From: Nitrospinales bacterium
GTDB lineage: Bacteria > Nitrospinota_A > UBA7883 > JACRGQ01
Length of the DNA: 64,000 nucleotides
Assembly: GCA_023248495.1 (NCBI GenBank)
Contig: JAHFEK010000006.1
Span: forward strand, 2,725-66,724
Direction of reading: 5' to 3'
Positions 46,936 to 59,924 of this stretch are shown in pieces. The notes under the pieces were generated by a model. It had not been told where the DNA came from. It saw only the letters and a list, made by a program, of their open reading frames with translations, and did not search any database. The position numbers and the translations under genes are program-made. Every line of letters begins with the position of its first letter. Positions within the stretch are counted from its first letter, which is position 1.

Positions 46936-47691
46936 TTAGTGCTTGTGTTCGGCATGCCCCTCGTGGCCATCGCCCAGAAGCTTGGCCTGATCGGGGTGCT
47001 CACCCATCCATTCCACGTGGCCATCCACCAGGTCGTACACCGCGCCGACAACCTTAACTTTACCCGAAGCGACAAGGTGGCGGATCTCTTCACTGCGGGT
47101 AAGCATGTCGGATATCGATTGCAGCACGTTTTCGCTGATGGCGCGGTTAATCAGATCATCGCCTTCAAGACGCTTGTCCTTTGCGCGCTTGGCGGCGGGA
47201 ACGATATTATCAACCAATTGCGGAATGCTGCCGCCGACTTTATCCCCCTTAACCACGGCGGTGACGGCGCCGCACTTTTTGTGTCCCAACACCACAATAA
47301 GGGGGGTGCCGAGGTGCCCCGCGCCATATTCCACGGTGCCAATCTCATCGGTATCAGACACGTTGCCGGCCACGCGAATGACAAACAGATCGCCAATGCC
47401 GCGGTCGAATACCAGCTCGATAGGCGCGCGCGAATCGGAGCAGCCGAGAATGCTGGCGAAGGGATGCTGGCCGCCTTTGGTTTCATCACGGCGAGCCTGG
47501 GAAACGTTCGGGCTGGTCAACTTGCCCGACATGTAGCGGGCGTTGCCTTCCTTCAACATGGCAAGGGCCTGATCGGGTGTGGGACCGGCGGGCGTCGCCG
47601 CCGGTGCGGCTTCCTTACCGGCGGCAAAAACCGCCAGTGGCGAAAGGATAAACATAATGGCAAACGCGGCGGCAACCATGGACTTTTTCAT
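46936..47691 (-). CDS. Exported beta-class carbonic anhydrase
   Basis: Signal peptide (LAVFA), CSDSR, RVAGN and HKKCGAV zinc ligands; His-rich tail. Confidence 0.95.
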   Translation of the reverse strand: MKKSMVAAAFAIMFILSPLAVFAAGKEAAPAATPAGPTPDQALAMLKEGNARYMSGKLTSPNVSQARRDETKGGQHPFASILGCSDSRAPIELVFDRGIGDLFVIRVAGNVSDTDEIGTVEYGAGHLGTPLIVVLGHKKCGAVTAVVKGDKVGGSIPQLVDNIVPAAKRAKDKRLEGDDLINRAISENVLQSISDMLTRSEEIRHLVASGKVKVVGAVYDLVDGHVEWMGEHPDQAKLLGDGHEGHAEHKH

Positions 47692-47803: not shown

Positions 47804-48895
47804 TTATTTCATTTCGGTGGTGGTGGAATAAAGCGGGATTTTCATTTCCGTTTTCGTTATCACCACCGGCTGGTAGGTCAGATAAGCCTCCGCGACAATC
47901 TTGACGATGTCCCTGGGCCGAACGCCGAAGCGGAATGTCTCTACCCGCGATTCCCCTGGCAGCAGCCTGTTGTCGCTTGAAATCTTTTTGCCATAGAGGA
48001 ACGCATCGCCGTCCGTCAGCATCTCTTCGCCTTTGTCGTTCATGATCCGCTTGCGGTACAGTTTCTTTTTCACTTCCACGACATTACCGGCGGCATCCAG
48101 CGCATGCACTTCCAGCACCAATGTCCGCGCCGGAGTGCCGGTGGGAATGGCGTGTCCGGCCCCCTCGTTCGTCAACAAGACGTCGGCCAACACGGCATCG
48201 TTCATCCGAACCGGCTCTTTCGTTTCCACCCGCACCGCCCCCAGCATTTTTTCCATGCTGTGGGCCAACGAGTGGTCATGGATGGAATCGCGCCCGTTTT
48301 CCTTTGCGCTCCGGCCGGGCATCTCGGCCATGTGGCAGTTTTGACAGTGCACACCGGACATCATGTATTGCGATTTGTTCCATTCATCATATGTATTCCC
48401 CACCTTTGTTCCGAGGCGGTTCGTGAAATCGTGGCAACCGGAACAGAGCCGCGCGGTGGCGAAGGCCTCGCTATAGGCGGTGCCGTGCTCTTTTGGGGCG
48501 CTTTCCTTCAGCGCGGAATGTTTCACATCGCCCGTCTTCAACACGAAGACACCATTTTTCACATCCGCCACGCTATGGCAAAAATCGCAGGTAATCCCCT
48601 CGCGGGTGATTTCTTCCTTCGCGGCATAGTCGCCGGTTATCCGCGTGGTGGGTGCGTGACAGGGAAGACAGATGCGCGCCGCCCCGCCTTCGGTCTCGGC
48701 ATATGCTTTTTGGTACGCGGCCTGGAATATCGGATTGTTATAGGAAAGGGCGTGAAGCGATTTTTTCCAATTGTCGTAGTGATCCTGGTGGCATGAACCG
48801 CAAACTTTGGCTGCATTAAAAGGGACGGGTGTTTTGGCGAAAGCGGTCAACGGAACCGCCAGAATGAAAAGCAAAAATATGATCCGCCGGTTCAT
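47804..48895 (-). CDS. Periplasmic pentaheme c-type cytochrome (c554-like N-domain plus beta-rich C-domain)
   Basis: Signal peptide; five CXXCH motifs (CGSCH, CLPCH, CDFCH, CSGCH, CQNCH); GHAIPTG motif. Confidence 0.9.
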   Translation of the reverse strand: MNRRIIFLLFILAVPLTAFAKTPVPFNAAKVCGSCHQDHYDNWKKSLHALSYNNPIFQAAYQKAYAETEGGAARICLPCHAPTTRITGDYAAKEEITREGITCDFCHSVADVKNGVFVLKTGDVKHSALKESAPKEHGTAYSEAFATARLCSGCHDFTNRLGTKVGNTYDEWNKSQYMMSGVHCQNCHMAEMPGRSAKENGRDSIHDHSLAHSMEKMLGAVRVETKEPVRMNDAVLADVLLTNEGAGHAIPTGTPARTLVLEVHALDAAGNVVEVKKKLYRKRIMNDKGEEMLTDGDAFLYGKKISSDNRLLPGESRVETFRFGVRPRDIVKIVAEAYLTYQPVVITKTEMKIPLYSTTTEMK

Positions 48896-49150
48896 CGCAG
48901 CCTCCCGCCAAGAAAAATGAACACCCTTGTGCTTATGAACTCATCATACCACGATTTTTTAATGGGCCTCCGCCAGCCAAGAGCAGGTCAGTTGCGGAAG
49001 GGTTTTTCCCTTGAATGACCATACGATTGCTTATCGCCACCCTCTGCCAAACCGATCGCAAGGCCGTACCGCGGTACTGTTATAAATATAATAATTTAGG
49101 CCCCAAATATCTTTCTGAGTGATAAAATGGCACTTGTAGGGAGGGAGAAG

Positions 49151-50380
49151 ATGTTACCGAATCTTCGATCCACTAATAACCTCATTGGTCTTGGCGCTAT
49201 TTTTCTAGTCTGCCTCTTTTCTAGCGGTGCGGGAGCCGCGTCCTTTTCCCTCAAATCTTCCTCGCAATTCCTTTGGGGTGAAAACTGGCTGGGAGAAAAC
49301 GATCCGGTCGTGGCCGAATACCTCAAATTTAAATATGATGGCGAATCTAAAATGCGGTTTACCGGCTATGGCAGGGCATCGAAATCCTTCGGCGCTGGAA
49401 CTCTGCGCGATACCGCCACCCAGGGCCGCCTTTATTACGGCTATCTCGACTATTGGGGGATCGATTCTTTTTCACTGCGGGCGGGCCGGCAGTATGCCAG
49501 CTATTCCGCCGGCGGCATGGTTCTTGACGGGCTGACCGCCGACTTTCGCAACCTTTCATCCTATGCCGGGATGGCGTTGTCGGCCGGCAGCGATGTGCAA
49601 ATGCCGGTTAACTCCGATTATTCCACCGATCAAAAAACGGCGCTGGCCGCCAGCGTCTACCTGAAGAACACCGGCCTCACCGAAGCCGACCTCAGTTATG
49701 TGCGCAAATACGACGGGAAAAGCGCCGCGCGTGAAACGGTGGGCATGAATGTGGCCTCCTCGTTTCGACTGGTAAAACCGTATGCACGAGCCGCCTACAA
49801 CAATCTCACGGAATCGTTCGACACCATCATAGCCGGCCTTGATATCTTTCCCACCGCGCGCCTGGCGGTGCGGGGGGAATACTACCAAGCGTATCCCACA
49901 TTCGACGCAAGTTCCATCTACAGCGTTTTCGCGGTGGACCGCTATAGCGAATATCTTTTGAAAGCGGCGTATGACGTGACAACGCGTTTCACCGGCTTCG
50001 CCGCGTACAAGCGGCAGGCGTACGAGGAGAACGACACCGCCGACGTCATTTCGTTGGGAGGAACGTACCTGCCCTCGGATAACGCGTGGATGAATGTGAC
50101 GGTGGATAACCGGCAGGGCCGGGGGGGCCGCCTGTGGGGAGGCCAAATCTACGGTGATTATGGCATTTCCGGCGACCTCAAGCTTTCGTCCGGCATCCAG
50201 CGCGACATGTATCAGCGCGTGGAAACGGTGGACACCTGGGCCAATGCCTCCCGCTACTGGCTGGGAATCAAGTACCGGATCAAGGAAGAGAGCCAAGTGA
50301 CGGTGCGGGTGGAGGAAAACGTAAACGAAAATTTCAACCACCGGCTTGTGGGGAGGGCAACCTTTGATATCAGCTTCTGA
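49151..50380 (+). CDS. Outer-membrane beta-barrel porin of a porin-cytochrome complex (OmbB/ExtB-like)
   Basis: Signal peptide, aromatic-rich alternating beta strands and C-terminal Phe (ATFDISF); lies directly upstream of two multiheme cytochromes. Confidence 0.8.
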   Translation: MLPNLRSTNNLIGLGAIFLVCLFSSGAGAASFSLKSSSQFLWGENWLGENDPVVAEYLKFKYDGESKMRFTGYGRASKSFGAGTLRDTATQGRLYYGYLDYWGIDSFSLRAGRQYASYSAGGMVLDGLTADFRNLSSYAGMALSAGSDVQMPVNSDYSTDQKTALAASVYLKNTGLTEADLSYVRKYDGKSAARETVGMNVASSFRLVKPYARAAYNNLTESFDTIIAGLDIFPTARLAVRGEYYQAYPTFDASSIYSVFAVDRYSEYLLKAAYDVTTRFTGFAAYKRQAYEENDTADVISLGGTYLPSDNAWMNVTVDNRQGRGGRLWGGQIYGDYGISGDLKLSSGIQRDMYQRVETVDTWANASRYWLGIKYRIKEESQVTVRVEENVNENFNHRLVGRATFDISF

Positions 50381-51152
50381 ACGCGTTGCGCGCATCACGG
50401 CGCTGTCCCTGTTGATAACGGGAATCTTTTGCCTGTACGCGGGCGGCGCCGGGGCTTTTGCCCACAAGAAATATGCCACGGAGCCGCGCGATGTCTGCAA
50501 CGAATGCCACAAAGACATGAATGTGGCCCAAAATCACGGGCCGCTCTGGACCACCGAACACCGGACCTATACGTTGAAAACCGACACCAACTGCAAGACC
50601 TGCCATGAACAGGCTTTCTGCACCGATTGCCACTATGGCGGCGGAATCGGCGCCGACCTGCACGCAAGCACCAGCGGCCCGGATTACTTGCCCAAATCGC
50701 ATCGATCCGATTTCCGCGAACTCCACCCGCTCAAAGCAAAGGACGATCCCCCTTCCTGCCAACGGTGTCACGACAACGAGCGGTTCTGCGCCGATTGCCA
50801 TGCCCGGTTCAACAAAGATGAATTGATGGGCGCTTCGCACCGGAAGGGTTTTTCAGAGCTTGAGGTTCAAGCGGGAGGGGTCAAGCACAGTTCGTTCACC
50901 AGCGGACAATGTATACAGTGCCACCCCAATAGCCTGTTGCCGAAGCACGAGTGGTCCGCGCAACACGCGCGCGAAGCGCGGCAAGACCTCGCTTCGTGTC
51001 AATCGTGTCATACCGATGGCGACGTCTGCCTGAAATGCCACGCCGCCACCAATGGCTTAAAACGCAACCCGCATCCGAAAGATTGGGCGAAGATCGCGGA
51101 CAAGATGCGCACCGCCAGCGGGGGCAAAACATGTGACCGGTGTCATCCTTAA
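50364..51152 (+). CDS. Periplasmic nonaheme c-type cytochrome (OmaB-like position)
   Basis: TTG at 50364 after GGAGG; signal peptide (AGAFA); nine CXXCH motifs. Confidence 0.9.
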   Translation: MISASERVARITALSLLITGIFCLYAGGAGAFAHKKYATEPRDVCNECHKDMNVAQNHGPLWTTEHRTYTLKTDTNCKTCHEQAFCTDCHYGGGIGADLHASTSGPDYLPKSHRSDFRELHPLKAKDDPPSCQRCHDNERFCADCHARFNKDELMGASHRKGFSELEVQAGGVKHSSFTSGQCIQCHPNSLLPKHEWSAQHAREARQDLASCQSCHTDGDVCLKCHAATNGLKRNPHPKDWAKIADKMRTASGGKTCDRCHP

Positions 51153-51170
51153 AGCATGGAAGGGGTTGTT

Positions 51171-53525
51171 ATGAACAGGCATATGAAACGGGTGGCGGTT
51201 ATGCTCATGGCGGCCGCGGTGCTGCTTTTGTTCGCGGCATGCGGCGATGGCAAAAAGGGAAGTTCGGGAATGGGCAGCGGCATGGGAGTTACCGCGATCG
51301 GCACTACAACCTGTTTCAAGTGCCATGCGGATAATAACAATCCCGCCGGGCTTAAAAAGCCTTTCGGTGACACTCAAGCGGTTGCGGCCAATGGCTTGGG
51401 ATGGCTGAATTCGCGCCACGCGAACAAAATCGGCGGGCCAAAATATGCCGATGCTGATTGGGTCTCCTCCTGCGCCTCTTGCCATGATCCAAACCATGAA
51501 GGTTCGGAAATTGCCAGTTTCTATTTTGACACCGGACTGAATACATTCGGCACCACCAACCGGCCGATTACCGGGTGCGAGTCGTGCCACGGCAATGGCG
51601 GCAATCATTATGGCGTGGGTCCGCTGGAATATAACAATCCCGGTGCCGCCCGCTGTGCCCTTTGCCACGGCGCTTCTTTTCCACATTCCGCTCTCGCCCG
51701 TTATAAGGAGAAGCTCGATATTTATGCCGACTACCTGGGTTCCGCTCACGCGGGATCGCGAAACGCCAACGTGCTGGTTACCGGCACGCCCGCCAATGTC
51801 ACCGCCATCTGCTCACGCTGCCATACCGATGAAGGCGCGAGACGTTACATTAATACTTACGATGGCTCCTCCGGCGGCCAATCCAGCTATGCCGGTGCGG
51901 TCAACGCCCTCGAAGCCGCGGCCAGCATCAACGGCGCGTCGGCCATTGAATGCAAAACCTGCCATGACGCGCACAATCCAAACCGGTTCCTGGCTGAGAA
52001 CGGCCCGGCGGGCGCGGCATTAACGAATATCACCACCGGCGCGTGGTCGGCGGAATTCGCCACCTGCAACACCTGCCATCAATTGCTTAATGCCGACGGC
52101 ACAAAAAACACCGCGGGCTACCATAATCCAGCGGTGAACACCGCGGCCGCCGCCGATAGCAGCCAGATCATCACCGATACGCACTTTGCCACGAAAGGGA
52201 GCTGGACCGGCGCCGGCGGCGTCAATATAAACGCTATTGCCGGCTACTACATCGATTTCGCGGATAAGCGCGCCTGCACCAACTGCCACAATCCCCACCA
52301 AGCCAACGTGACCATCAACCGGCAATGGCACGCCTCGAAACACGGCGGCGATTTCACCGCCGCCGGGGCGTGGGCGCACTACGACTGGAAGGCAAGCAAC
52401 CGGCAGGCCTGCCAACGGTGCCATACCACCAGCGGCGCGGTCACGTACCTTGATACCCTGATCGCGGGTGGAACCTACGGCACCGGAAACATCGCGGCCA
52501 CGGCCAATAGCACCGCGCCGGAAATGTTGCAATGCCAAGGCTGTCACACCGACAACAAAGGGACGCTGCGCAATCCCGGCGCTCTCACGGTGACGTATTA
52601 CGGCGATGCCCAAGCGCTGGCCGATTTCGTTACCACCGCCGCGGTGCCGGTTACCTATCCCGACCTGGCCGGATCGAACATCTGCCTATCGTGTCACGTT
52701 GGCCGTGAAAGCGGTTCCAGCATAAAAGCCTCCACGAAGGCCTTCACCAACGGCACCAGTTTCATAAATTCCCACTATTTGAGCGCCGGTGGCACGGTCT
52801 TCGCCCAAACGGGGTATACCTACTACACCGCCACCGCCACTTCCGATCCGTACGCCAACCCCAGCTTCTATAAGCACGACACGATAGGGTTGGCGGCCAG
52901 CAAGAACATCGGCGGCAGCAACGGCCCCTGCGTTGGCTGCCACATGACTTCCACGGCGGATGCCGCCACCAACTATGGCTCGCACCGTTTCCTCCCGGTG
53001 CAAAAAGATTCCGCCGGCGCCATCACCGCGATGACAACCACCGTCTGTGCCAACTGCCATGCCGGCAAGTACAGCATGACCCCCGCCGAGTTGGAGCACC
53101 AGATGACCCTTTTCAACGCGGGCATTGGCGTGCTTAAAGATATGCTTGCCAATAGCGGGTTTTACTTCGTCAACACTTCGCCGTATTTTTACACCACCGC
53201 CGCGGGAACAGCCGCGCAAACCGTGTGGGGAAGCAGCAAGGCCGTCGGCCAGCAGAATATGGGGGCCGCGTTCAACTACAACCTGCTGGAGCATGACCCG
53301 GGGGCGTACGCCCACAACCGTTATTACGCCAAACGGCTGATCTACGATTCCATCGACTGGCTGGATGACAAAACGATGAACCACAGCGTGCCGGGCACGT
53401 TGGATGGAATCGCCGCTTCATCCAGTTACAGCAGGGCGGATGCCATTGCGTACCTTATCGACAGCGCATCGGCAACCGACCCGTTGACCGGCGTCGGCGC
53501 GGCGCAGACCGGCGGCAGGCCGTAA
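51171..53525 (+). CDS. Outer-membrane lipoprotein multiheme cytochrome, 13 hemes (OmcB/OmcC-like)
   Basis: Lipobox LLFAA-C and 13 CXXCH motifs. The C-terminal FNYNLLEHDPGAYAHNRYYAKRLIYDSIDWLDD is recalled as typical of Geobacter OmcB-family proteins. Confidence 0.88.
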   Translation: MNRHMKRVAVMLMAAAVLLLFAACGDGKKGSSGMGSGMGVTAIGTTTCFKCHADNNNPAGLKKPFGDTQAVAANGLGWLNSRHANKIGGPKYADADWVSSCASCHDPNHEGSEIASFYFDTGLNTFGTTNRPITGCESCHGNGGNHYGVGPLEYNNPGAARCALCHGASFPHSALARYKEKLDIYADYLGSAHAGSRNANVLVTGTPANVTAICSRCHTDEGARRYINTYDGSSGGQSSYAGAVNALEAAASINGASAIECKTCHDAHNPNRFLAENGPAGAALTNITTGAWSAEFATCNTCHQLLNADGTKNTAGYHNPAVNTAAAADSSQIITDTHFATKGSWTGAGGVNINAIAGYYIDFADKRACTNCHNPHQANVTINRQWHASKHGGDFTAAGAWAHYDWKASNRQACQRCHTTSGAVTYLDTLIAGGTYGTGNIAATANSTAPEMLQCQGCHTDNKGTLRNPGALTVTYYGDAQALADFVTTAAVPVTYPDLAGSNICLSCHVGRESGSSIKASTKAFTNGTSFINSHYLSAGGTVFAQTGYTYYTATATSDPYANPSFYKHDTIGLAASKNIGGSNGPCVGCHMTSTADAATNYGSHRFLPVQKDSAGAITAMTTTVCANCHAGKYSMTPAELEHQMTLFNAGIGVLKDMLANSGFYFVNTSPYFYTTAAGTAAQTVWGSSKAVGQQNMGAAFNYNLLEHDPGAYAHNRYYAKRLIYDSIDWLDDKTMNHSVPGTLDGIAASSSYSRADAIAYLIDSASATDPLTGVGAAQTGGRP

Positions 53526-53576
53526 ACGAACGATGAAGCGCCAGCGGAAGGGCTTTTACTTTAAGGGAGGTGGAAG

Positions 53577-53963
53577 ATGAGCGAAATCATGGGACGAAAA
53601 GGGATAAGCCGGCTTTTGCCGCTGGCTCTGCTGACCGCCGTTCTCTTCACCGTCAGCCCCGTCATCGCCGAGGAGGATGAAGATGAAAAACCGCCGGCCG
53701 ACTTTGTGATGAAAGACACCGGCGAGAGCGACTGGGTCATGTTGAGCCATGCGAAACACGAGAAAAAAGTTCCTAAATGCACCTCCTGCCACCCGAAAGT
53801 TTTCTCGTCCAAAATGGGGCGGACCAAGGAAACGAAGGGTGAACTGAAAATGACCGCGATGGAAAAAGGTGAATTCTGCGGCGCGTGCCACAACGGCAAA
53901 GATAATTTCGACGTTAAGGTGAAAGATGATTGCATAAAGTGCCACAGCGTTAAAAAGGAATAG
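53577..53963 (+). CDS. Periplasmic triheme c7-type cytochrome (PpcA-like)
   Basis: Signal peptide, HAKH distal ligands and three CXXCH motifs (CTSCH, CGACH, CIKCH). Confidence 0.85.
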   Translation: MSEIMGRKGISRLLPLALLTAVLFTVSPVIAEEDEDEKPPADFVMKDTGESDWVMLSHAKHEKKVPKCTSCHPKVFSSKMGRTKETKGELKMTAMEKGEFCGACHNGKDNFDVKVKDDCIKCHSVKKE

Positions 53964-53965
53964 CT

Positions 53966-55951
53966 TTATTGCGCCGCGGAAACGCCCGGCGGCGGGGCGA
54001 TGCCGTCAAGTTTCTTTTTCAACTCCTTGGCGGCGCGTTTGATCGGCTTTGGATTATGCATGCCGTGGCTGCCGTCGTTTACGATCCCCAGGACAAATGT
54101 CCGGGCGTTGTCCACGGCGGCTTTCTGCTCCGCCGATAGATTCATTTTCACGGCGCGGGTGATGCCGGCGTTCAAATCATCGATGAGGGCGTCGGTGTCT
54201 TTCACGCCTTTTCTCATTTTTTCCGCGTAGACGGGATCCTTGTGACAGGCGGCGCAATCCTCCGGCGTCACCTCTTTGCCGTTCATCTGGTGGCACTTGG
54301 TGCACGGGAAATCAAGGCTCTTCATGCTCGGCTCATCCACCGCGTTCCAGCGCCCCTGAATGATGTCGTTTTGCGGCGTATGGCACTCTTCGCACTTCTT
54401 CGTAATTTTTTGCTTGTGGTGGCACGGGGCGCATCCCGCTTTGTCGATGGTCAGCTCGGCATGTTTCACGGCGATGCTGTGGCACCGTTGACATTCAAAT
54501 TTACCGCCGGTATGGGTCTTGTGATTGAACGGGAGACCGGCATAGAGCGGCGCCACTTTGTCCAGATAGAAGTGGCAGGTGAGGCAATCGGCGTTAGGTT
54601 TTCGTTCCTTCATGCCGGCGCGCGGCAGGATTAGGGAAATCTTGCCTTGTTTGCCGATGTTCGCGAGGGTGGCCCGCGCCGCTTCCAGAATCTCGTTCGC
54701 ATAACGGACGTTATGCACGATGTTGCCGCGCGCGACGATGGCCAGATTCCCGCGCACGGCGGCCACTTCCGCTTTTGCCCCTTTACCGGCGAGATGCCCC
54801 TCCAGCGCCGCCGCCGCATTGTTGAGCGCGACGACCCGCTCTTCAGCGTCGTGTTGCCATGTTTTTATAAGCTTGTTAAACCCCCGCCCGTGGCAGGTAT
54901 CGCAGCTTTTACCGCTGGCATAGTAAGTGCCGGGGCCTTTTTCCCCCGCCGCTGTCAGACCATGGGAAATGTGGCAGCCCCGGCAGTTCAGCCCAATCTC
55001 GTACATCCGGTTCGGCAGGGGGGGTACGCCGCTGGCCCCCTCGCCGGTGAATAGGGTGATCGTGGCGTTATGGTGCCGCGGGTGGCAGGTTTGGCAATCC
55101 GCCACCGTTGTGGCGTCGCCGGGGCGGAGCTTGTGTTCAATGGCGAGATGGCACCGCTGGCATTCGATTTTGTTTTCGGAAATATGCTTTGCGTGCATAA
55201 GGCTGGTGTTTTTGAATTGGCCGAGCCGTTCGTTATCCCAGTGGCACGCGAAACAGTTTTGCTTGGCAACGGGGCCGGTTCCCTGCACGGTGTGGCTGTG
55301 GCAGGTCTGGCAGGCCAGTTTCTCGCGCAGCACGATGCTATGGTCATAGCGAAGCTCGCCGGCCTTTGAGCGGCGCAGCATCACGTCGCGGTCGTGACAA
55401 ACGGTGCATTCGGCCTGTTTCGGCGTGACGCCCCCCTCTCCCGCTTTAAAGTGGCAAAGGTAACAGGCGGTCGCCGTGACGGTTATATGCAGCCCCTGCA
55501 CAATCTGCGAGTGGCAACTGGTGCAGCGGAGCTTTTTGCCCCCCTTCAAATCTCCCAAGTGCGGCGTGTGGTCGAATACTACCCCTTCTTTAAAGTTCAC
55601 CCTCCCCCGAAGGAGGCGTGTTTCGTGACAGCCGGTCCGGAGGCAGCTTTCATCCGGGATCTCGGCCCACGGACGTGATTTTTTATATGTACGCGAAGTG
55701 TATTTCACCAATTGCACCAAGCCGTTCAGTTTGCCGGCGATGGCCCCTTTGAGACCCGGGGCGAAGTGGCATTCGATGCATTCGACCTTATTGTGCGATG
55801 AATTCCGCCAACTGTCGTAAAACGGCTGCATGTAGTGGCATGTAACGCAAAAACCGGAACGGGACGTGAACATGGCCGTGCCAGCCGTGAGAATCGCAAG
55901 TCCGACGAGCGAAAGGACGGCTATGGTGAGCGCCCTTTTGAGCTTACCCAT
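53966..55951 (-). CDS. Membrane-anchored NapC/NirT(NrfH)-type multiheme cytochrome with long polyheme extension
   Basis: N-terminal TM segment followed by TSRSGFCVTCHYM..YDSWRNSSH..VECIECH (NapC/NirT pattern); 17 CXXCH motifs plus one CX4CH. Confidence 0.88.
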   Translation of the reverse strand: MGKLKRALTIAVLSLVGLAILTAGTAMFTSRSGFCVTCHYMQPFYDSWRNSSHNKVECIECHFAPGLKGAIAGKLNGLVQLVKYTSRTYKKSRPWAEIPDESCLRTGCHETRLLRGRVNFKEGVVFDHTPHLGDLKGGKKLRCTSCHSQIVQGLHITVTATACYLCHFKAGEGGVTPKQAECTVCHDRDVMLRRSKAGELRYDHSIVLREKLACQTCHSHTVQGTGPVAKQNCFACHWDNERLGQFKNTSLMHAKHISENKIECQRCHLAIEHKLRPGDATTVADCQTCHPRHHNATITLFTGEGASGVPPLPNRMYEIGLNCRGCHISHGLTAAGEKGPGTYYASGKSCDTCHGRGFNKLIKTWQHDAEERVVALNNAAAALEGHLAGKGAKAEVAAVRGNLAIVARGNIVHNVRYANEILEAARATLANIGKQGKISLILPRAGMKERKPNADCLTCHFYLDKVAPLYAGLPFNHKTHTGGKFECQRCHSIAVKHAELTIDKAGCAPCHHKQKITKKCEECHTPQNDIIQGRWNAVDEPSMKSLDFPCTKCHQMNGKEVTPEDCAACHKDPVYAEKMRKGVKDTDALIDDLNAGITRAVKMNLSAEQKAAVDNARTFVLGIVNDGSHGMHNPKPIKRAAKELKKKLDGIAPPPGVSAAQ

Positions 55952-56189: not shown

Positions 56190-57608
56190 CTATTCGACCA
56201 AGTATCCTTGCAGCCAAAGAACGCCGGTGATGCATTTTCCCAATTCCAACATGCAGTCAGCGTCCAATGCCGAATCCGCGATATAAAGAAAAACATTGAA
56301 ATCATAATCGTCAGGGCGCATCAGTGTCGCTTTTAACCGGCTTAGGTCAATTCCCCGAACATGTATCCTCTTAATCTCATCCACCTTGACCATAAAGTCA
56401 TAATCATCACTTCCAAGGTCTTCCCGCTGGAAAAGGATTGCCGCCCCATCAAGAGATATTTTTATTGGTTCCAAGCTATCAGAAACATCTGGACGGCCCG
56501 CCTGACGCATAGCCTTTAACTTTTCAGGATCATCAATCACAACCTCATTGTGTTTGGGGTTGCCAGCCATGTAAACCAAGCCCGACAACATGAACTTTGC
56601 TTTCATTCCTGGATGATACTTATCCCGGTTCTTATAGTAATGCGTATCAAAGAAGGAGATGGGAGCGCAACCGGCAATGGTGCCTAAAATAGTCCCTATG
56701 CTCACCACATGTTGAACGAAGTTTAGCTGTTTGTTGCTGGTGGTTGCCCAAAAGTCGTCCCGCTCGTAAGTCATTTTGTCCTGCTGTTTCTCGCCGTTCT
56801 CCCCCACGATAGTGACGCTGCTCTTTTTGCCGAAGGGTGGATTCGTCAGCACCATATCCACCTCTTCAGCTACTTTGCCGCGCAGGGCGTCTTTGCTTTC
56901 GACCGGGCTTTCGTCGCCACCGATGCCGTGCAGGTAGAGATTCATGGCGCAAAGGCGAACCACGCTATCCACTATGTCCGCGCCGCGCAGGGCTTTCTCT
57001 TTAAGGTGGCGCGCGGCCCCGTGATCCAGCTTTTGGTGCTTCTCGATGTAATCGTAAGCGGCAAGGAGGAACCCGCCGGTACCGCAGGCCGGGTCAGCGA
57101 TTACCATTCCGGTCTTGGGGCGCATTACCTCCACCATCGCGCGGATGAGCGGGCGCGGCGTGAAGTACTGTCCCGCCCCGCCTTTTACGTCGGATGCGTT
57201 TTTTTCCAGCAATCCTTCGTAGATGTCACCTTTAACGTCGGTGCTCATGGAGGACCAGTCTTCCTTGCCGATCATGTTTATCAGGTGGGCGAGCTTGGCG
57301 GGGTCGGATATCTTGTTCTGCGCTTTTTTGAAGATGACGCCGAGCAAGCCGGGATACTTGCCCAACGCTTCAAGAATGTGGCGGTACTGGATTTCCAATG
57401 CGTCGCCGTCCAGCTTGGCAAGGGCCTTCCATTGGTATTCTTTCTGGATTCTTACATCCTTCCCCTGCTCCATCCGCTCCTGCGCCATTTTGAGGAAGAT
57501 GAGGAAGGTTATCTGCTCAACGTAATCGCCATAGGAAAGGCCGTCGTCGCGCATGACGTGAGCGTAGTTCCAAACTTTCTGGACAATGGCGGCGCTGTTT
57601 TCGGTCAT
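56190..57608 (-). pseudogene. hsdM: Type I R-M methyltransferase HsdM, C-terminally truncated and fused in frame to an unrelated ORF remnant
   Basis: GQYFTPR, DPACGTGGFL, NPPF and SNKQLNFVQH motifs are present. HsdM-like sequence stops at ~56700, where an AT-richer, unrelated sequence begins. Confidence 0.8.
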
Positions 57609-57652
57609 TTTTGTTCTCTGATTATAATGGCTACGGCTCGTTGATGACCGTG

Positions 57653-57997
57653 TCAGGAAGGAAACTCGGCTTTAAGGATACGTTCGACCTTATCTTGCAG
57701 GGCTGGCGCTTCCACCGTAGCGGCACTCCAGACGAGAACCCAGTCCACTGAAAAATAGGCGTGTACAACATAGTTGCGGAAATCCGTGATTTTTCGCCAC
57801 GGGATATCAGGATATTTTTCTTTGACCCCTTGCGGCAATTTGGAGGCCGCTTCCCCTATAACTATCAGTTTCATCAATACGGCGCTTTTTACAACGTCGC
57901 TATCCATGAACTTTTCAAAAGTAACACCTTCAATAAAAGAGCGTATCGCCTTTGCGGCTTCCACTATATCCGCAAGATAAAGCTTTTCACGCCGCAT
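57653..57997 (-). CDS. HepT-like (DUF86/HEPN) ribonuclease toxin
   Basis: YLADIVEA, IGEA, IPWRKI and RNYVVHAY (RX4H HEPN motif). Confidence 0.92.
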   Translation of the reverse strand: MRREKLYLADIVEAAKAIRSFIEGVTFEKFMDSDVVKSAVLMKLIVIGEAASKLPQGVKEKYPDIPWRKITDFRNYVVHAYFSVDWVLVWSAATVEAPALQDKVERILKAEFPS

Positions 57998-58289
57998 AAA
58001 AAACTTTCGAGCTGTTTAATACCTCATCCCGGATGATGGGATTAAGCCCCCTTTTGGAAACGAGGTCCACTTTTCGGCCGAGAATATCAGCAAGCTCGTG
58101 CTGCATTCCGATGAATTCCAAAAGCCCTATTTTTGCATCCGGCATGAACTCCACAAGAAAGTCGATGTCGCTTTGATCGGTAAAATCGTCCCGCACGGCG
58201 GAACCGAAAACGGAAAGCTCCCGCACCTGATACCGTTTGCATATCCCGGCGATGGCCTCTTTCGGCAATTCAATTTTTATTGCGTTCAT
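57987..58289 (-). CDS. MntA-like minimal nucleotidyltransferase antitoxin
   Basis: VFGSAVRDDF...SDIDFLVEF (GSX10DXD) and LGRKVDLV motifs; overlaps the HEPN gene. Confidence 0.93.
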   Translation of the reverse strand: MNAIKIELPKEAIAGICKRYQVRELSVFGSAVRDDFTDQSDIDFLVEFMPDAKIGLLEFIGMQHELADILGRKVDLVSKRGLNPIIRDEVLNSSKVFYAA

Positions 58290-58303
58290 TTTTATACTTT
58301 CCT

Positions 58304-59863
58304 TTACCTTACGCCCATTTTAGCCTGTTTTCGTGGTTTGGCGGAATGGGACTCACGGTTCCTCTTTAAATCCCGTCCTTTCTCTCTTTCGGCTTGGATA
58401 CGCTTGAGGAGTTCGCTGGCCGGTTCGTCGTCCGGGTTTTGCGGCACCAGCTTCCCCTCGAACGCCTTTTTCAGGATGGACTGGCGGAGGCTCTTAATAA
58501 TTGGCTCAACCTTAAAAACACTTTGCTCAATGTGCTTTATTCTGCTCAGAAGTTCCTCGTATTCTTCTATCAGGACATGTTGTTCATGCAGTGGGGGCAA
58601 CGCGACTGGTATTTTCCTTATGATACCTAGATTTAAAATTTCCATCGTCCCTCCGTGCGAGGCAATCTTGAACAAATGTTTTACTTGTGGTGCCTGCAAA
58701 TATATTTGCACATACTTGGATAAAACGAGCTTGTTGTCTAAAGACACTTTCACAAGGCGTGGATTTATTATGCCCGGCTCACAATCTTTAGGGAGGATTA
58801 ATACCCTTCCAATAGTTCCAACCAAACTAATCAACATATCGCCCGGTTTGATCGCGCAGCTTTCAAGTTCTTCATACAACTTTCTATCAACGTAATAATC
58901 ACCATATCTATGGTCGTTCCTAATAACTTGCTCTTGACCATATATTTTGTAACCAGCCTTGGAATACATCGACTTCTTAAGAGAAGAACCAAATGGTCCG
59001 GCTTTTAGGGAATTGTCTTCATCGGTCGCTAGTATCTCAAGGTTTATCCATACCCACCCCTCGGGCAATTCGGGGAGGGATGAAGTATCAGGGGAAGCGG
59101 GTTCCTGGTATTTTTCTTTCCATTTGTCGTCTTTGGGGGTGATGCCTTTGCGTTTGAAGTCGGCCAGCTGGGCTTCTTCCCACTTTTTGCGGCGTTCTTT
59201 CAGGATGCGGTCGAGAAGTTTTGAGGCGGGTTCCAGCTTGGCTTTGTTCTTTTCGCGCCACTTTTTGGTGAGTTCACCGGTGACGGCGGCCTTTAGCACA
59301 GATTGGCGGTACTGCTTTAAAAGCGCCTTCGCTTTTTCCAGCGCCTTCACCCCCGCATCCAGATTGCTGAAAAGCTCCTCAATCTTCGCCACAATCCTCT
59401 TTTGCCCATTGAGCGGCGGAAGAGGCAAGGTGATCGTTCTTAGTTTTGATGCATTAACATTCTGCAAAGCTATGCCACTGCTGAGTTCAGAAATATTTTT
59501 CCAATATCGCGAACTTTGTAAAAAATAAGCTAAGTAGCTTGGATTAATCAGAGGACGAAATCGAATTAAGTAAGATGCAAATACAGATTTGGCGGGATTC
59601 TTGATTAATGAACTTACACCAATTGACCCAGCTCTGGAAATTACAATATCTCCATCGTTCAAAAGATACTTATTGAGATTATAAGGCTCCTCGTGGCAGA
59701 AAGGAACATCGTTCCAATTTATTGGCCCCGAAGTAATATCTGTGGTTCTTAGAAAGTAGATTTTGCCCGTTTTGGATGCTTTGGTTGTCCATCCATACTG
59801 TGGATATGCACATACCTCATCAAGAGTGCTCTCAACCCACCCCTTCGGCAGTTCCTCGCTCAC
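58304..59863 (-). CDS. hsdS: Type I R-M specificity subunit
   Basis: LPKGW...PLPPL..QKRIVAKIEELF...LKAAVTGELT, with a second LPEGW...LPPL.EQ...LKKAFEGKLV (two TRDs). Confidence 0.93.
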   Translation of the reverse strand: MSEELPKGWVESTLDEVCAYPQYGWTTKASKTGKIYFLRTTDITSGPINWNDVPFCHEEPYNLNKYLLNDGDIVISRAGSIGVSSLIKNPAKSVFASYLIRFRPLINPSYLAYFLQSSRYWKNISELSSGIALQNVNASKLRTITLPLPPLNGQKRIVAKIEELFSNLDAGVKALEKAKALLKQYRQSVLKAAVTGELTKKWREKNKAKLEPASKLLDRILKERRKKWEEAQLADFKRKGITPKDDKWKEKYQEPASPDTSSLPELPEGWVWINLEILATDEDNSLKAGPFGSSLKKSMYSKAGYKIYGQEQVIRNDHRYGDYYVDRKLYEELESCAIKPGDMLISLVGTIGRVLILPKDCEPGIINPRLVKVSLDNKLVLSKYVQIYLQAPQVKHLFKIASHGGTMEILNLGIIRKIPVALPPLHEQHVLIEEYEELLSRIKHIEQSVFKVEPIIKSLRQSILKKAFEGKLVPQNPDDEPASELLKRIQAEREKGRDLKRNRESHSAKPRKQAKMGVR

Positions 59864-59895: not shown

Positions 59896-59924
59896 GTGGA
59901 CGGGTGTGGGGCAGGTGAGTCCCA

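What the first reader, a model, noticed from the sequence alone, without database searches (positions are those of the whole stretch)
47804..55951. Single-locus, apparently complete trans-envelope electron conduit (porin-cytochrome complex + periplasmic shuttle + quinol-side cytochrome)
Seen in sequence: an operon of beta-barrel (C-terminal Phe), 9-heme periplasmic cytochrome, 13-heme lipoprotein cytochrome and triheme c7-type cytochrome. A membrane-anchored NapC/NirT-type 17(+1)-heme protein converges on it, and a pentaheme diverges from it, giving 47 canonical CXXCH motifs in ~8 kb. Established: porin-periplasmic MHC-lipoprotein MHC is the order of Geobacter ombB-omaB-omcB; c7 cytochromes (PpcA) shuttle electrons across the periplasm; NapC/NirT members (CymA, ImcH-type) link to the quinone pool, and in model organisms these parts lie at separate loci. 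Inference: this locus encodes the whole inner-membrane-to-surface chain, in a host that may not be a known electroactive taxon (possibly Nitrospinota-like). Electron direction (metal reduction or electron uptake) cannot be read from sequence.
Basis: partly seen in the sequence, partly recalled or inferred. Interest (0 to 1): 0.88.

Follow-up and report, generated by a model that had tools for sequence, protein, structure and literature searches.

The report
Porin-cytochrome electron conduit gene cluster
A groundwater bacterium from a little-studied Nitrospinota-like lineage carries, at one locus, a Geobacter-type outer-membrane electron conduit beside a likely inner-membrane entry cytochrome: known machinery, but in a new host and with a partner not yet described.

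Summary
Six ORFs at 47804-55951 carry 5+0+9+13+3+17 = 47 CXXCH motifs, in the stated order and orientation.

- **Core operon:** barrel, 9-heme and 13-heme lipoprotein are true homologues of Geobacter-type porin-cytochrome (Pcc) clusters. The barrel models as 22 strands, and the 9-heme protein is predicted to sit inside it.
- **Host distribution:** barrel and 9-heme genes occur only in the window's genus, 4 of 33 genomes of its small phylum. Their barrel groups with Nitrospirota versions, which suggests horizontal acquisition.
- **Triheme protein:** it is c7-type, closest to GSU1996 domains, and not shown to be PpcA.
- **17(+1)-heme protein:** it is a NrfH-like quinol module fused to about 14 more hemes, and is neither ImcH nor CbcL. 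Its family (about 660 aa, many phyla) often lies beside Pcc-type or Mtr-like porin-cytochrome pairs in metagenomes, which supports a role as inner-membrane partner.
- **Pentaheme:** it belongs to a phylum-wide multi-copy family and is not shown to be part of the conduit.
- **A second module elsewhere:** the genome, like most of the phylum, also encodes a 30-heme cytochrome next to a remotely related barrel.

Electron direction is unresolved. Overall this is a new variant of a known kind, of moderate interest.

The parts
49127..50380 (+). Pcc-type outer-membrane beta-barrel (OmbB-like), 417 aa; alternative start at 49151
   Evidence: No heme motif, 1 Cys and a C-terminal Phe. AlphaFold2 model: 22 strands, mean pLDDT 80, pTM 0.68. 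The best Foldseek TM scores (0.56-0.58, query-normalised) are to 22-strand TonB-dependent receptor barrels. 208 relatives were found in species genomes. It is a single copy in its own genome.
50385..51152 (+). Secreted 9-heme cytochrome (OmaB-like) predicted to sit inside the barrel; the ORF is open from the TTG at 50346
   Evidence: 9 CXXCH. It is 40-55% identical to the 8/9-heme genes that follow the barrel in other lineages. The 8-heme forms lack one motif through an indel. Complex prediction with the barrel passed its controls.
51156..53525 (+). 13-heme lipoprotein cytochrome (OmcB-like position)
   Evidence: 13 CXXCH, a lipobox-like LLFAAC followed by a Gly/Ser-rich linker. Pfam MtrC/MtrF domain II/IV scores 63.8 bits against a cut-off of 30. 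67 of 68 equivalent third genes in related loci have a signal peptide ending in [GAS]-C.
53577..53963 (+). Secreted c7-type triheme cytochrome
   Evidence: PF14522 scores 55 bits (cut-off 24.8) and TIGR04257 scores 63.4 bits (cut-off 40). The best solved relative is 3OV0, a chain of four c7-type domains, at E 3e-35. It occupies the same position at 78-81% identity in L002, L003 and G005.
53966..55951 (-). Membrane-anchored 17(+1)-heme cytochrome: an NrfH/NapC-like quinol-dehydrogenase module fused to about 14 further hemes
   Evidence: PF03264 scores 30.8 bits (cut-off 24.1). TIGR03153 NrfH scores 47.6 bits over model positions 5-136 of 138, below the equivalog cut-off of 134.2. It aligns to solved NrfH 2J7A, including FC..CH.M. 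All 17 CXXCH and the CX4CH are invariant in 16 family members. It converges on the operon in all 3 genus genomes where contiguity allows a test.
47804..48895 (-). Secreted pentaheme cytochrome, divergent neighbour; membership in the conduit not shown
   Evidence: 5 CXXCH, and all 10 Cys lie in those motifs. NF040886 ExtKL scores 79.7 bits against a cut-off of 250. The family is present in 31 of 33 genomes of the phylum, usually in 2-4 copies. It lies beside the barrel in G000 and G005 but not in G007.

Best explanation
Window 49127-53963 (+) is a four-gene operon. It encodes a 22-strand outer-membrane barrel, a secreted 9-heme cytochrome that threads into the barrel, a 13-heme surface lipoprotein cytochrome and a small secreted c7-type triheme cytochrome. 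The first three genes are a member of the Geobacter-type porin-cytochrome (Pcc, OmbB-OmaB-OmcB-like) family, in its 9-heme branch, which is otherwise seen mainly in Nitrospirota/Thermodesulfovibrionales bins.

Converging on the operon, 53966-55951 (-) encodes an inner-membrane-anchored cytochrome. Its N-terminus is an NrfH/NapC-type quinol-dehydrogenase module, and it is extended by about 14 more hemes.

Most likely mechanism: (mena)quinol is oxidised at the NrfH-like module. Electrons then run along its 18-heme chain into the periplasm, directly or via the c7 protein, to the 9-heme protein in the barrel. From there they reach the 13-heme lipoprotein outside the cell and finally an insoluble or large acceptor such as Fe(III)/Mn(IV) minerals or humics.

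- **Shown here:** gene content, motifs, homology, predicted barrel fold, and conserved linkage.
- **Inferred:** physical contacts, localisation, direction and substrate. I put outward (reductive) flow at about 60% and inward flow at about 25%.

The barrel and 9-heme genes were probably acquired horizontally by this one genus. The pentaheme at 47804-48895 is a native, phylum-wide paralogue and is not shown to be a part.
For: **Pcc membership**
- Barrel relatives lie in 208 stretches of species genomes, and 78 loci were kept.
- By tblastn, the 9-heme homologue is present in 76 of 78 loci and the 13-heme homologue in 60 of 78.
- 68 of 78 loci show an 8/9-heme gene followed by a large cytochrome, and 67 of those 68 carry a lipoprotein signal.
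- Named Geobacteraceae isolates (Geobacter sp. AOG1, G. argillaceus, Geomonas, Geomobilimonas, Pelotalea) carry the same triad, at 33-37% barrel identity and 44-45% identity for the 9-heme protein.
- The barrel profile hits 50 of 87 genomes of that family, often as tandem pairs about 5.4 kb apart. This fits the published tandem ombB/ombC clusters (abstract of PMC4589669, listing).

**Barrel and its cytochrome**
- The barrel model has 22 strands with mean pLDDT 80.
- Barrel plus 9-heme complex: median score 0.73, best of 3 controls 0.00. That mark was reached by 58 of 80 solved complexes and 2 of 110 mismatched pairs. These counts hold only roughly here, because my own alignments were used.
- The three runs agree in at least 60% of their contacts, and the partner's pLDDT is at least 63.
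- Contacts involve barrel residues from 43 to 414 and the family's most conserved loop, 257-273.

**Inner-membrane partner**
- It has an NrfH-like N-terminus with the motif CXXCHxM.
- The full-length family is highly conserved and found in many phyla.
- Of 47 metagenome loci with at least 8 kb of flank, 47 hold another cytochrome ORF with 4 or more hemes. 11 of them hit the Pcc barrel or 9-heme profiles. 19 have a Cys-poor ORF of at least 380 aa next to an ORF with 5 or more hemes: 10 are Pcc-type and 9 are Mtr-like, about 620-670 aa beside a 10-heme gene.
- The convergent arrangement is conserved in G000, G005 and G006, which is 3 of the 3 genus genomes where contiguity allows a test.

**Acquisition**
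- Both the barrel profile and the 9-heme profile hit 4 of 33 genomes of the phylum, all in one genus out of 26.
- In the tree, the window's clade groups with a mostly Nitrospirota clade at local SH-like support of 100.
Against: - There is no experimental evidence of any kind.
- G. sulfurreducens PCA proteins themselves were not available for comparison.
- The complex score is a model's own confidence. It may owe something to learned MtrAB-like architecture, and no hemes were modelled.
- The 13-heme protein's surface exposure rests only on a lipobox and on analogy.
- The inner-membrane cytochrome scores below NCBIfam's NrfH cut-off, and its quinol activity is inferred.
- In two other genera of the same family (G010, G014), shorter NrfH-like multihemes sit in operons with pentahemes of the 47804-48895 family. 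The 17-heme protein may therefore serve that pentaheme as well, or instead.
- One relative (G012) has the 17-heme, c7 and 12-heme lipoprotein homologues but no barrel or 9-heme hit in a 97%-complete genome. Those parts can therefore exist without this barrel.
- Only 11 of the 47 long metagenome loci show a Pcc profile hit, so the linkage is frequent but not universal.
- Direction is open. The genome has an A-type heme-copper oxidase, an ATP-citrate-lyase domain and no RuBisCO, which would also fit a lithoautotroph that takes up electrons.
Confidence: 0.7

Rival explanations
1. The same hardware runs inward. It would be an electron-uptake conduit oxidising Fe(II), Mn(II) or solid-phase donors, feeding an aerobic or microaerobic respiratory chain and, through the NrfH-like module run in reverse, the quinone pool of an rTCA autotroph.
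For: - The genome encodes a CtaD-like heme-copper oxidase subunit I (545 bits) and two more distant ones.
- It has an ATP-citrate-lyase citrate-binding domain (184 bits) and no RuBisCO hit.
- No NarG/NxrA-size molybdoenzyme was found.
- Near-identical DNA occurs in groundwater metagenome runs of two studies.
- CymA and CbcL/MtoC-type proteins occur in both Fe(III) reducers and Fe(II) oxidisers and are thought to be reversible (abstract and passages of PMC6295460).
Against: - The characterised members of this Pcc family act in Fe(III) reduction (abstracts of PMC4245776 and PMC4589669).
- OmbB-OmaB-OmcB homologues were reported absent from 73 neutrophilic Fe(II)-oxidiser genomes (abstract of PMC5566968).
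- Oxidase and ATP-citrate-lyase genes do not by themselves show autotrophy or the direction of flow.
- The genome is only 87.7% complete.
Confidence: 0.25
2. The 17-heme NrfH-like protein mainly serves the neighbouring pentaheme as a periplasmic NrfH/NrfA-like respiratory pair for a soluble substrate. On this reading its position next to the Pcc operon is incidental.
For: - In G010 and G014, which belong to the same family but other genera, a pentaheme homologue (46-49% identical) is directly followed by an NrfH-like 11-14-heme protein on the same strand.
- The pentaheme family is native to the phylum, in 31 of 33 genomes.
Against: - Those operon partners are shorter proteins (463-538 aa). G014's matches only residues 27-429 of the 17-heme protein at 33% identity, and G010's matches residues 14-429 at 33%.
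- The full-length 660-aa family lies next to porin-cytochrome pairs in other phyla.
- In the window the two genes are separated by the oppositely oriented operon, and in G007 the pentaheme lies on another contig.
- The pentaheme lacks the heme-ligating Cys and the Sec/Cys that define the only characterised enzyme of similar build, MccSep (preprint 10.1101/2025.11.18.688581, passages).
Confidence: 0.15
3. The cluster is foreign to the genome (a mis-binned contig) or is a decaying remnant without function.
For: The barrel and 9-heme genes are restricted to one genus, and a type I restriction-modification island lies directly next to the cluster.
Against: - The same 75.9-kb contig carries housekeeping genes (an arginyl-tRNA synthetase-like ORF at 42372-44090 and others), and G+C is even along it.
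- All 4 genus genomes carry the genes at 72-88% identity with open frames.
- No stops or frameshifts occur in any of the six ORFs.
Confidence: 0.03

Closest known systems
Geobacter sulfurreducens OmbB-OmaB-OmcB / OmbC-OmaC-OmcC porin-cytochrome (Pcc) complex
   Same: The gene order is the same: porin, periplasmic multiheme, lipoprotein multiheme. The barrel and periplasmic cytochrome are homologous to those of Geobacteraceae clusters, and the third gene carries a lipoprotein signal.
   Different: Heme counts are 9 and 13 instead of the published 8 and 12. The barrel is only 33-37% identical to Geobacteraceae versions and groups with Nitrospirota versions. No OrfR/OrfS-type regulator is seen beside it. 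A c7 gene and an inner-membrane cytochrome gene are attached. The host belongs to a different phylum.
Ignavibacterium-type pcc clusters (porin, 14-heme periplasmic and small lipoprotein cytochrome; IALB_1837-1840 in Shi et al. 2014), as seen here in metagenome loci L096, L124, L140, L162 and L169
   Same: The overall logic is the same: a homologue of the 17-heme NrfH-like protein, then a small 3-4-heme secreted cytochrome, then the porin, a periplasmic multiheme and a lipoprotein multiheme. The barrel and periplasmic cytochrome hit the window's family profiles at E 1e-7 to 1e-18.
   Different: All genes lie on one strand. The cytochromes have 14 and 6 hemes. The small cytochrome is c554-like, not c7. 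Extra Rieske/cytochrome b, NrfD/FeS or cytochrome b561-type genes lie in the same clusters.
mtr/mto clusters that include a quinol dehydrogenase gene (Rhodoferax ferrireducens mtrABC with two cymA and mtrH; Sideroxydans Mto pathway with CymA)
   Same: One locus, or one pathway, runs from the quinone pool to the cell surface (passages of PMC6295460; section 7 of PMC4245776).
   Different: The protein families are unrelated: MtrB-type barrels, decaheme MtrA/C and tetraheme CymA. Pfam and NCBIfam gave no family hit at all for the window's barrel.
NrfH / NapC / CymA quinol dehydrogenases (solved NrfH, 2J7A)
   Same: The window protein has an N-terminal membrane helix followed by FCxxCHxM...CxxCH, which aligns to NrfH residues 12-75. 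It also has a Pfam NapC/NirT hit above the cut-off.
   Different: It is 661 aa with 17+1 hemes, against about 160 aa and 4 hemes. It scores 47.6 bits against the NrfH equivalog cut-off of 134.2.
ImcH and CbcL, the Geobacter inner-membrane cytochromes for extracellular electron transfer
   Same: All are proposed to link the quinone pool to periplasmic cytochromes. ImcH-like proteins of two Geobacter genomes share the NapC/NirT-like region, corresponding to residues 15-92 of the window protein at 36-39% identity.
   Different: Those ImcH-like proteins have 3 hydrophobic segments, 6 CXXCH and a first CX3CH (Levar 2014 passages), whereas the window protein has one anchor and 17+1 motifs. CbcL's cytochrome b-type membrane domain is absent: the window protein has no PF01292 hit.
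GSU1996-type c7 domain cytochromes (3OV0, 3OUE, 3OUQ, 1RWJ) and PpcA
   Same: It is a triheme c7-type domain.
   Different: It has a single domain, against four in 3OV0. No PpcA entry appeared at E up to 0.01.
MccSep / ExtKL pentaheme polysulfide reductase (relevant to the neighbour at 47804-48895)
   Same: It is a secreted pentaheme with a non-heme C-terminal part. It gives weak hits to NF040886 (79.7 bits) and to solved MccSep (27 bits).
   Different: It has no Cys outside the five CXXCH motifs. It therefore lacks the heme-ligating Cys and the Sec/Cys that define MccSep.

Membership tests
Pcc (OmbB-OmaB-OmcB-type porin-cytochrome cluster) | [quoted passage not shown] | tested here: met
   The ORF order is barrel, 9-heme, 13-heme, separated by 3-5 bp gaps when the 9-heme gene starts at the GTG at 50385. 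The barrel model has 22 strands.
Pcc (OmbB-OmaB-OmcB-type porin-cytochrome cluster) | Sequence homology of the porin and the periplasmic cytochrome to Geobacter Pcc proteins (Shi 2014 used BLAST at E<0.01) | tested here: met
   tblastn to clusters of named Geobacteraceae isolates gives E 1e-59 to 1e-64 for the barrel. The 9-heme protein is 44-45% identical. The barrel profile hits 50 of 87 genomes of that family.
Pcc (OmbB-OmaB-OmcB-type porin-cytochrome cluster) | Direct homology to G. sulfurreducens PCA OmbB, OmaB and OmcB themselves | not tested
Pcc (OmbB-OmaB-OmcB-type porin-cytochrome cluster) | The outer cytochrome is a lipoprotein | tested here: met
   The window protein has LLFAAC followed by a Gly/Ser linker. 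67 of 68 homologous positions in related loci have a signal peptide ending in [GAS]-C. Surface exposure itself was not tested.
Pcc (OmbB-OmaB-OmcB-type porin-cytochrome cluster) | The periplasmic cytochrome is inserted in the porin | tested here: met
   This rests on prediction only. The score is 0.73 against a best control of 0.00. That mark was reached by 58 of 80 solved and 2 of 110 mismatched pairs, and these counts hold only roughly with my own alignments. The runs agree in at least 60% of contacts, and partner pLDDT is at least 63.
Pcc (OmbB-OmaB-OmcB-type porin-cytochrome cluster) | [quoted passage not shown] | not testable with these tools
   This needs genetics or proteoliposome assays.
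NapC/NirT/NrfH quinol dehydrogenases | An N-terminal membrane helix followed by a heme-1 motif in the quinol site (CXXCHxM in NrfH) | tested here: met
   There is a hydrophobic segment at about residues 8-28 and the motif FCVTCHYM at 34-41. This region aligns to 2J7A residues 12-75 and is invariant in 16 family members.
NapC/NirT/NrfH quinol dehydrogenases | A small tetra- or pentaheme protein that scores as an NrfH/NapC/TorC equivalog | tested here: not met
   The protein has 661 aa and 17+1 motifs. It scores 47.6 bits for TIGR03153 (cut-off 134.2) and 32.5 bits for TorC (cut-off 455).
ImcH | Three transmembrane helices and seven heme motifs, the first being CX3CH (Levar 2014) | tested here: not met
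   The window protein has one anchor, 17 CXXCH and one CX4CH. The ImcH-like ORFs of G033 and G034 match only its residues 15-92.
CbcL/MtoC/MtrH | A HydC/FdnI-like diheme cytochrome b membrane domain fused to the c-type hemes | tested here: not met
   The window protein has no PF01292 or other cytochrome b hit. Such a domain is a separate gene in some related metagenome loci.
c7 / PpcA periplasmic triheme cytochromes | A triheme c7-type domain with a signal peptide | tested here: met
   PF14522 scores 55 bits and TIGR04257 scores 63.4 bits, both above their cut-offs. A signal-peptide-like N-terminus is present.
c7 / PpcA periplasmic triheme cytochromes | Orthology to PpcA | tested here: inconclusive
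   The PDB sequence search returned GSU1996-type entries and cytochrome c3, but no entry named PpcA at E up to 0.01. I did not check which PDB codes hold PpcA.
MccSep/ExtKL (for 47804-48895) | A heme-ligating Cys and a Sec/Cys catalytic residue in addition to five CXXCH | tested here: not met
   All 10 Cys lie in the five CXXCH motifs. NF040886 scores 79.7 bits against a cut-off of 250.
MtrCAB | An MtrB-type barrel with decaheme MtrA and MtrC | tested here: not met
   The barrel has no Pfam or NCBIfam hit. The heme counts are 9 and 13. No MtrB entry is among the 50 Foldseek hits listed.

The most novel reading that the evidence does not exclude
The roughly 660-aa, 18-heme NrfH-fusion family would be an unrecognised, widespread class of inner-membrane quinol:cytochrome oxidoreductase for extracellular electron transfer. 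It would be long enough to carry electrons across much of the periplasm by itself, and would plug interchangeably into Pcc-type or Mtr-like outer-membrane conduits in many phyla. The window's small Nitrospinota-like phylum would also be natively electroactive through a conserved module of a giant (26-38-heme) cytochrome plus a remote Pcc-like barrel. One genus would then have stacked a second, horizontally acquired Pcc conduit on top of it.
Probability: 0.3. Interest if true: 0.75.

Novelty: new variant of a known kind. Interest (0 to 1): 0.5.

Why it matters
Pcc conduits are the Geobacter route for moving respiratory electrons to minerals and electrodes. Finding one in a groundwater lineage allied to nitrite oxidisers widens the set of organisms that may drive subsurface iron, manganese and humic redox cycling.

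The more useful lead is the attached inner-membrane protein. The quinone-side entry to such conduits is known only from CymA, ImcH, CbcL and a few others. Here a conserved 18-heme NrfH fusion lies beside two different conduit types in several phyla. That makes it a testable candidate for a further entry module.

The phylum-wide pairing of a giant cytochrome with a barrel suggests that these organisms' physiology is not yet understood.

Tried and rejected
**Ideas tested and rejected**
- **The pentaheme as a polysulfide reductase of the MccSep/ExtKL kind.** Rejected, because it has no Cys outside its heme motifs.
- **The 17-heme protein as ImcH or CbcL.** Rejected.
- **An Mtr-type conduit.** Rejected.
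- **A nitrite-oxidiser context.** No NarG/NxrA-like hit was found with PF00384 in a genome that is 87.7% complete. This is 'not found with this query', not proof of absence.

**Searches that gave nothing useful**
- PDB sequence searches gave nothing for the 13-heme protein or for the 9-heme family profile.
- The promoter/terminator scan was uninformative. It found 3 promoter-like sites against 5.0 expected, none in the 48896-49126 spacer. It found 24 terminator-like sites against 12.2 expected.
- The protein atlas gave only generic names for the 17-heme family.

**Expression**
- No RNA holder was listed for the stretch.
- One metatranscriptome run from the same sample as the probable source was laid. 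It yielded two short contigs (187 and 162 nt, identical to the window) inside 47804-48895 and nothing elsewhere.
- Contigs in an RNA library do not show transcription, and parts without cover say nothing. I use this neither for nor against.

**Literature**
- Searches for Nitrospinota or Nitrospinae together with multiheme, extracellular electron transfer or porin-cytochrome found 2 papers and 1 paper respectively. The 2 I saw only as a search listing. In the 1 (PMC10654088, passages), neither term occurs in connection with a Pcc cluster.
- Thermodesulfovibrionia plus porin-cytochrome found 3 papers. In the one I read, the term refers to Cyc2.
- The search 'octadecaheme/heptadecaheme/18-heme/17-heme' found 1 unrelated paper.
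- I therefore found no printed description of this cluster or of the 17-heme family. These are word searches of an open-access subset only.
They may already list such genes.
- Supplementary tables of Shi 2014, Zhong & Shi 2018 and He 2017 were likewise not seen.

**Papers and how much of each I saw**
- PMC4245776: abstract, passages and section 7.
- PMC4251993, PMC6295460, PMC5566968, PMC10839748, PMC10203281, PMC10654088, PMC13647500 and the preprint 10.1101/2025.11.18.688581: passages found by term search.
- PMC4589669: search listing and abstract start only.

**Recalled from memory, from no call**
- MtrB has 26 strands, and MtrCAB has been solved.
- In NrfH, the Met of CXXCHxM ligates heme 1.
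- 3OV0 is GSU1996.

Full report
**1. What is there**

They carry 5, 0, 9, 13, 3 and 17 CXXCH motifs, 47 in all, plus one CX4CH in the last.

- The heme-free 417-aa protein has a single Cys and ends in Phe.
- The 13-heme protein has a signal peptide ending LLFAAC, followed by a Gly/Ser-rich stretch.
- The 9-heme, triheme and pentaheme proteins have ordinary secretion signals.
- The 17-heme protein has one N-terminal hydrophobic anchor.
- With the 9-heme gene starting at the GTG at 50385, as alignment A2 suggests, the first three plus-strand genes are separated by 3-5 bp. The fourth follows after 51 bp.
- The stops of the c7 gene and of the converging 17-heme gene are 2 bp apart.
- In the whole 2.57-Mb, 93-contig genome only 15 ORFs carry 3 or more CXXCH, and 5 of them are here. 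G+C is even across the contig.

**2. The core is a Pcc-type conduit**

The barrel has no Pfam or NCBIfam family, but it has many relatives. 257 proteins scored E <= 0.001 among the candidates examined, and 208 stretches were found in one-genome-per-species contigs, of which 78 loci were kept.

The gene order is conserved in those loci.

- A homologue of the 9-heme gene is present in 76 of 78 loci, and a homologue of the 13-heme gene in 60 of 78.
- 68 of 78 show an 8- or 9-heme gene of 200-350 aa directly followed by a large cytochrome.
- 67 of those 68 carry a signal peptide ending in [GAS]-C. The exception is an N-terminally cut ORF.

Named isolates with the triad include Geobacter sp. AOG1, G. 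argillaceus, Pelotalea chapellei, Geomobilimonas luticola and two Geomonas species. The barrel profile hits 50 of 87 genomes of that family, often as two copies about 5.4 kb apart. This is the pattern published for the tandem ombB-omaB-omcB and ombC-omaC-omcC clusters (abstract start of PMC4589669).

Shi et al. [quoted passage not shown] They found such clusters in six phyla. The word stem 'Nitrospir' does not occur in their main text.

The 9-heme form differs from the 8-heme form by an indel that holds one CXXCH. I could not compare with the G. sulfurreducens PCA proteins themselves.

**3. Fold and assembly**

- The AlphaFold2 model of the barrel has 22 strands, with mean pLDDT 80 and pTM 0.68. 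Its loop at 258-268 is of low confidence.
- Foldseek finds only generic barrels. The best query-normalised TM scores, 0.56-0.58, are to 22-strand TonB-dependent receptor barrels. The protein has no plug domain, so it is a wide, empty barrel.
- Co-folding of the barrel with the 9-heme protein, each given as its family alignment, had a median score of 0.73 against a best control of 0.00.
- That mark was reached by 58 of 80 solved complexes and 2 of 110 mismatched pairs. These counts hold only roughly here, because my own alignments were used.
- The three runs agree in at least 60% of their contacts, and the partner's pLDDT is at least 63.
- Confident contacts run from barrel residue 43 to 414, that is, all around the wall. 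They include 257-273, the most conserved segment of the family. On the cytochrome side they cover residues 79-253. This is what a cytochrome inside the lumen would give.
- The model supports binding but does not show it. No hemes were modelled, and a learned MtrAB-like picture may contribute.
- No sequence relative of the 9-heme family or of the 13-heme protein is in the PDB.

**4. The c7 protein**

It scores above the cut-offs for Pfam Cytochrome_C7 and for TIGR04257. Its best solved relatives are the multi-domain c7-type cytochrome 3OV0 (E 3e-35) and fragments of it. No entry named PpcA appeared. It keeps its position after the lipoprotein gene in L002, L003 and G005, at 78-81% identity.

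**5. The 17(+1)-heme protein**

- Its first roughly 140 residues match NrfH (TIGR03153, model positions 5-136 of 138, at 47.6 bits against a cut-off of 134.2) and Pfam NapC/NirT. They align to solved NrfH through the anchor helix and FCxxCHxM.
- The remainder consists of c7/c3-like repeats.
- The full-length architecture is a conserved family. Relatives of 36-45% identity over 95-99% of the length carry names from Ignavibacteria, Kryptonia, Calditrichaeota, KSB1, Zixibacteria, Fidelibacterota, Gemmatimonadetes, Aminicenantes and Acidobacteriota.
- All 17 CXXCH and the CX4CH are invariant in a 16-member alignment.
- Databases give the family only generic names.
- It is not ImcH. In two Geobacter genomes the best matches are ORFs of 517 and 520 aa with three hydrophobic segments, six CXXCH and a first CX3CH. 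That is the published ImcH architecture (Levar 2014), and those ORFs share only residues 15-92 of the window protein.
- It has no cytochrome b domain, so it is not CbcL-like.
- Zhong & Shi 2018 surveyed CymA (4-5 motifs), CbcL-type (3-23) and ImcH (6-10) homologues. This family falls outside the CymA and ImcH descriptions and lacks the CbcL membrane domain.

**6. Is it linked to conduits elsewhere?**

523 of them encode a relative, and 80 loci were kept. 47 of these have at least 8 kb of flank in total.

- All 47 hold another ORF with 4 or more CXXCH.
- 11 hit the window's barrel or 9-heme profiles at E < 1e-6.
- 19 have a Cys-poor ORF of at least 380 aa next to an ORF with 5 or more hemes on the same strand.
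- Of those 19, ten are Pcc-type: a barrel of about 420-445 aa, then a 14-heme protein, then a 6-heme lipoprotein. This is the arrangement Shi 2014 describe for Ignavibacterium album.
- The other nine are Mtr-like: a barrel of 556-674 aa beside a 10-heme gene.
- In the Pcc-type loci the order is 17-heme homologue, small 3-4-heme secreted cytochrome, barrel, periplasmic cytochrome, lipoprotein cytochrome. That is the same logic as in the window.
- Rieske/cytochrome b, NrfD/FeS and cytochrome b561-type genes also lie in these clusters.

ORFs here were called mechanically, and the criteria are crude. Linkage is frequent but not universal.

**7. Host and history**

- The window's phylum holds 33 species genomes in the collection.
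- The barrel occurs in 4 of 33 and the 9-heme gene in 4 of 33. All are in the window's genus, one of 26 genera, even at E <= 1e-5 with profiles.
- The only named relatives above 70% barrel identity are labelled Nitrospinae bacterium, Nitrospinales bacterium or plain 'bacterium'.
- In a FastTree of 76 barrels, the window plus two relatives sit on a long branch (0.92). They group with a 26-row, mostly Nitrospirota clade (local SH-like support of 100) and stand apart from the Geobacterales/Syntrophales clade. The tree is quick, midpoint-rooted, and warned about long branches.
- This pattern suggests horizontal acquisition by the genus. Neither donor nor date is shown.
- The 17-heme gene is found full-length in the genus and in one other genus (G012, 45% identity). 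Shorter NrfH-like relatives occur in five more genomes, giving 10 of 33 in all.
- In G005 the order is pentaheme (-), then barrel, 9-heme, 13-heme, c7 and a 916-aa 19-heme gene (+), then the 17-heme gene (-). G006/L003 has the same extra 19-heme gene. The window lacks that gene, and the genome has no close copy of it.

**8. The pentaheme**

- Its family is in 31 of 33 genomes of the phylum, usually in 2-4 copies. The window's genome has three further copies.
- It is beside the barrel in G000 and G005. In G007 it lies on another contig while 8 kb upstream of the barrel is present. In G006 the contig ends, so no test is possible.
- In G010 and G014, a homologue is followed on the same strand by a shorter NrfH-like 11-14-heme protein. 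The family therefore seems to work with NrfH-like partners.
- It resembles ExtKL/MccSep weakly but lacks the Cys and Sec/Cys that define that enzyme.
- I treat it as a neighbour of uncertain relation to the conduit.

**9. Direction**

- The genome has a CtaD-like oxidase and two distant heme-copper oxidases, NuoG, a PhsA/Psr-like molybdoenzyme and an ATP-citrate-lyase domain. No RuBisCO hit and no NarG/NxrA-like hit were found, at 87.7% completeness.
- Characterised Pcc complexes reduce Fe(III). OmbB-type clusters were reported absent from neutrophilic Fe(II) oxidisers.
- NapC-type proteins can run either way.
- I favour outward flow at about 60% but cannot decide the question.

**10. A second module**

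- On contig C76, a 958-aa 30-heme cytochrome is followed by a 427-aa Cys-free protein ending in YRF.
- That protein models as a 22-strand barrel with mean pLDDT 81.7.
- It is a remote relative of the Pcc barrel: profile-profile probability 97.4%, E 1.5e-11, 15% identity.
- It occurs in 27 of 33 genomes of the phylum.
- In all 15 genomes I looked at, it lies directly after a giant cytochrome. The heme counts are 26-38, or 10 and 17 where the contig cuts the gene. In two cases the ORF calls overlap.
- So the window's locus is not the genome's only candidate conduit, and the phylum may have one of its own.

**11. Occurrence**

Near-identical DNA is held by groundwater metagenome runs of two studies, one of which may be the source. 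A run of the second study has contigs at 95-99% identity across 47804-52735.

**12. Verdict**

- It is wrong on the 'ImcH-type' label, and PpcA orthology was not shown.
- It is unsupported for the pentaheme.
- It is overstated on uniqueness.
- The cluster is a Pcc conduit in a new host lineage, with a so far undescribed type of inner-membrane partner. I rate it a new variant of a known kind, of moderate interest.

Noticed in passing
G000 contig C76, 22985-27138 (locus L177:4986-9142): A 958-aa, 30-heme cytochrome is directly followed by a 427-aa Cys-free protein that models as a 22-strand barrel (pLDDT 81.7). This barrel is a remote homologue of the Pcc barrel (hhalign 97.4%, E 1.5e-11). It is present in 27 of 33 genomes of the phylum, and in 15 of 15 genomes inspected it follows a giant multiheme gene. 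It may be a phylum-wide two-gene porin-cytochrome module.
   Followed up: partly
L176 (G005:C28) 13457-16207; L003 6127-8853: Same-genus relatives carry an extra 908-916-aa 19-heme cytochrome gene between the c7 gene and the converging 17-heme gene. The window lacks it, with only 2 bp between the two stops, and its genome has no close copy.
   Followed up: partly
L173 (G012:C9) 1845-10267; also L090: A genome of another genus in the same family has homologues of the 13-heme lipoprotein (39% identity), the c7 protein (49%) and the 17-heme protein (44%), plus an 11-heme gene. It has no barrel or 9-heme hit anywhere in a 97%-complete genome. How a lipoprotein cytochrome would be wired there is unexplained.
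   Followed up: partly
L174 (G010:C49) 7612-10502; L175 (G014:C62) 2062-4701: Homologues of the window's pentaheme are followed on the same strand by NrfH-like 11-14-heme membrane cytochromes. This suggests a native NrfH-like/pentaheme respiratory pair of unknown substrate in this phylum.
   Followed up: partly
window 46936-47691 (-): A beta-class carbonic anhydrase (PF00484, 130.7 bits) with a secretion-signal-like N-terminus and a His-rich tail lies next to the pentaheme gene.
   Followed up: no
window 56190-63258 (-): A type I restriction-modification system (hsdM, hsdS, hsdR) directly flanks the cluster, with a HepT/MNT-type toxin-antitoxin pair inserted between hsdM and hsdS. The HsdM ORF matches the N6_Mtase model only over positions 2-179 of 311, so its C-terminal third is atypical.
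   Followed up: no
metagenome loci L095, L096, L155, L156, L162, L169: In FCB-type contigs, the 17-heme homologue sits in very large respiratory clusters. These hold Rieske plus cytochrome b plus a 9-11-heme gene, an 18-heme cytochrome next to a cytochrome b561-type membrane protein, and NrfD/FeS pairs. In L155 and L156 there is also a 10-heme / 620-aa barrel / 10-heme set that looks Mtr-like.
   Followed up: partly
L070 versus L064; L019: A barrel on a contig labelled Candidatus Peribacteraceae is nearly identical to one labelled Syntrophaceae (end branches 0.019 and 0.004). A contig labelled Chloroflexota sits inside the Nitrospirota clade. These are likely binning or labelling artefacts rather than biology.
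   Followed up: no
window 47879-48064 and 48166-48321: Two short contigs of a metatranscriptome run, from the same sample as the probable source run, match the pentaheme gene exactly. Nothing else in the 8.1-kb stretch was covered. This does not show transcription.
   Followed up: no
window 53988-54007 (+): A terminator-like hairpin with a T-run lies just after the c7 stop, inside the 3' coding end of the converging 17-heme gene. It is a consensus match only.
   Followed up: no
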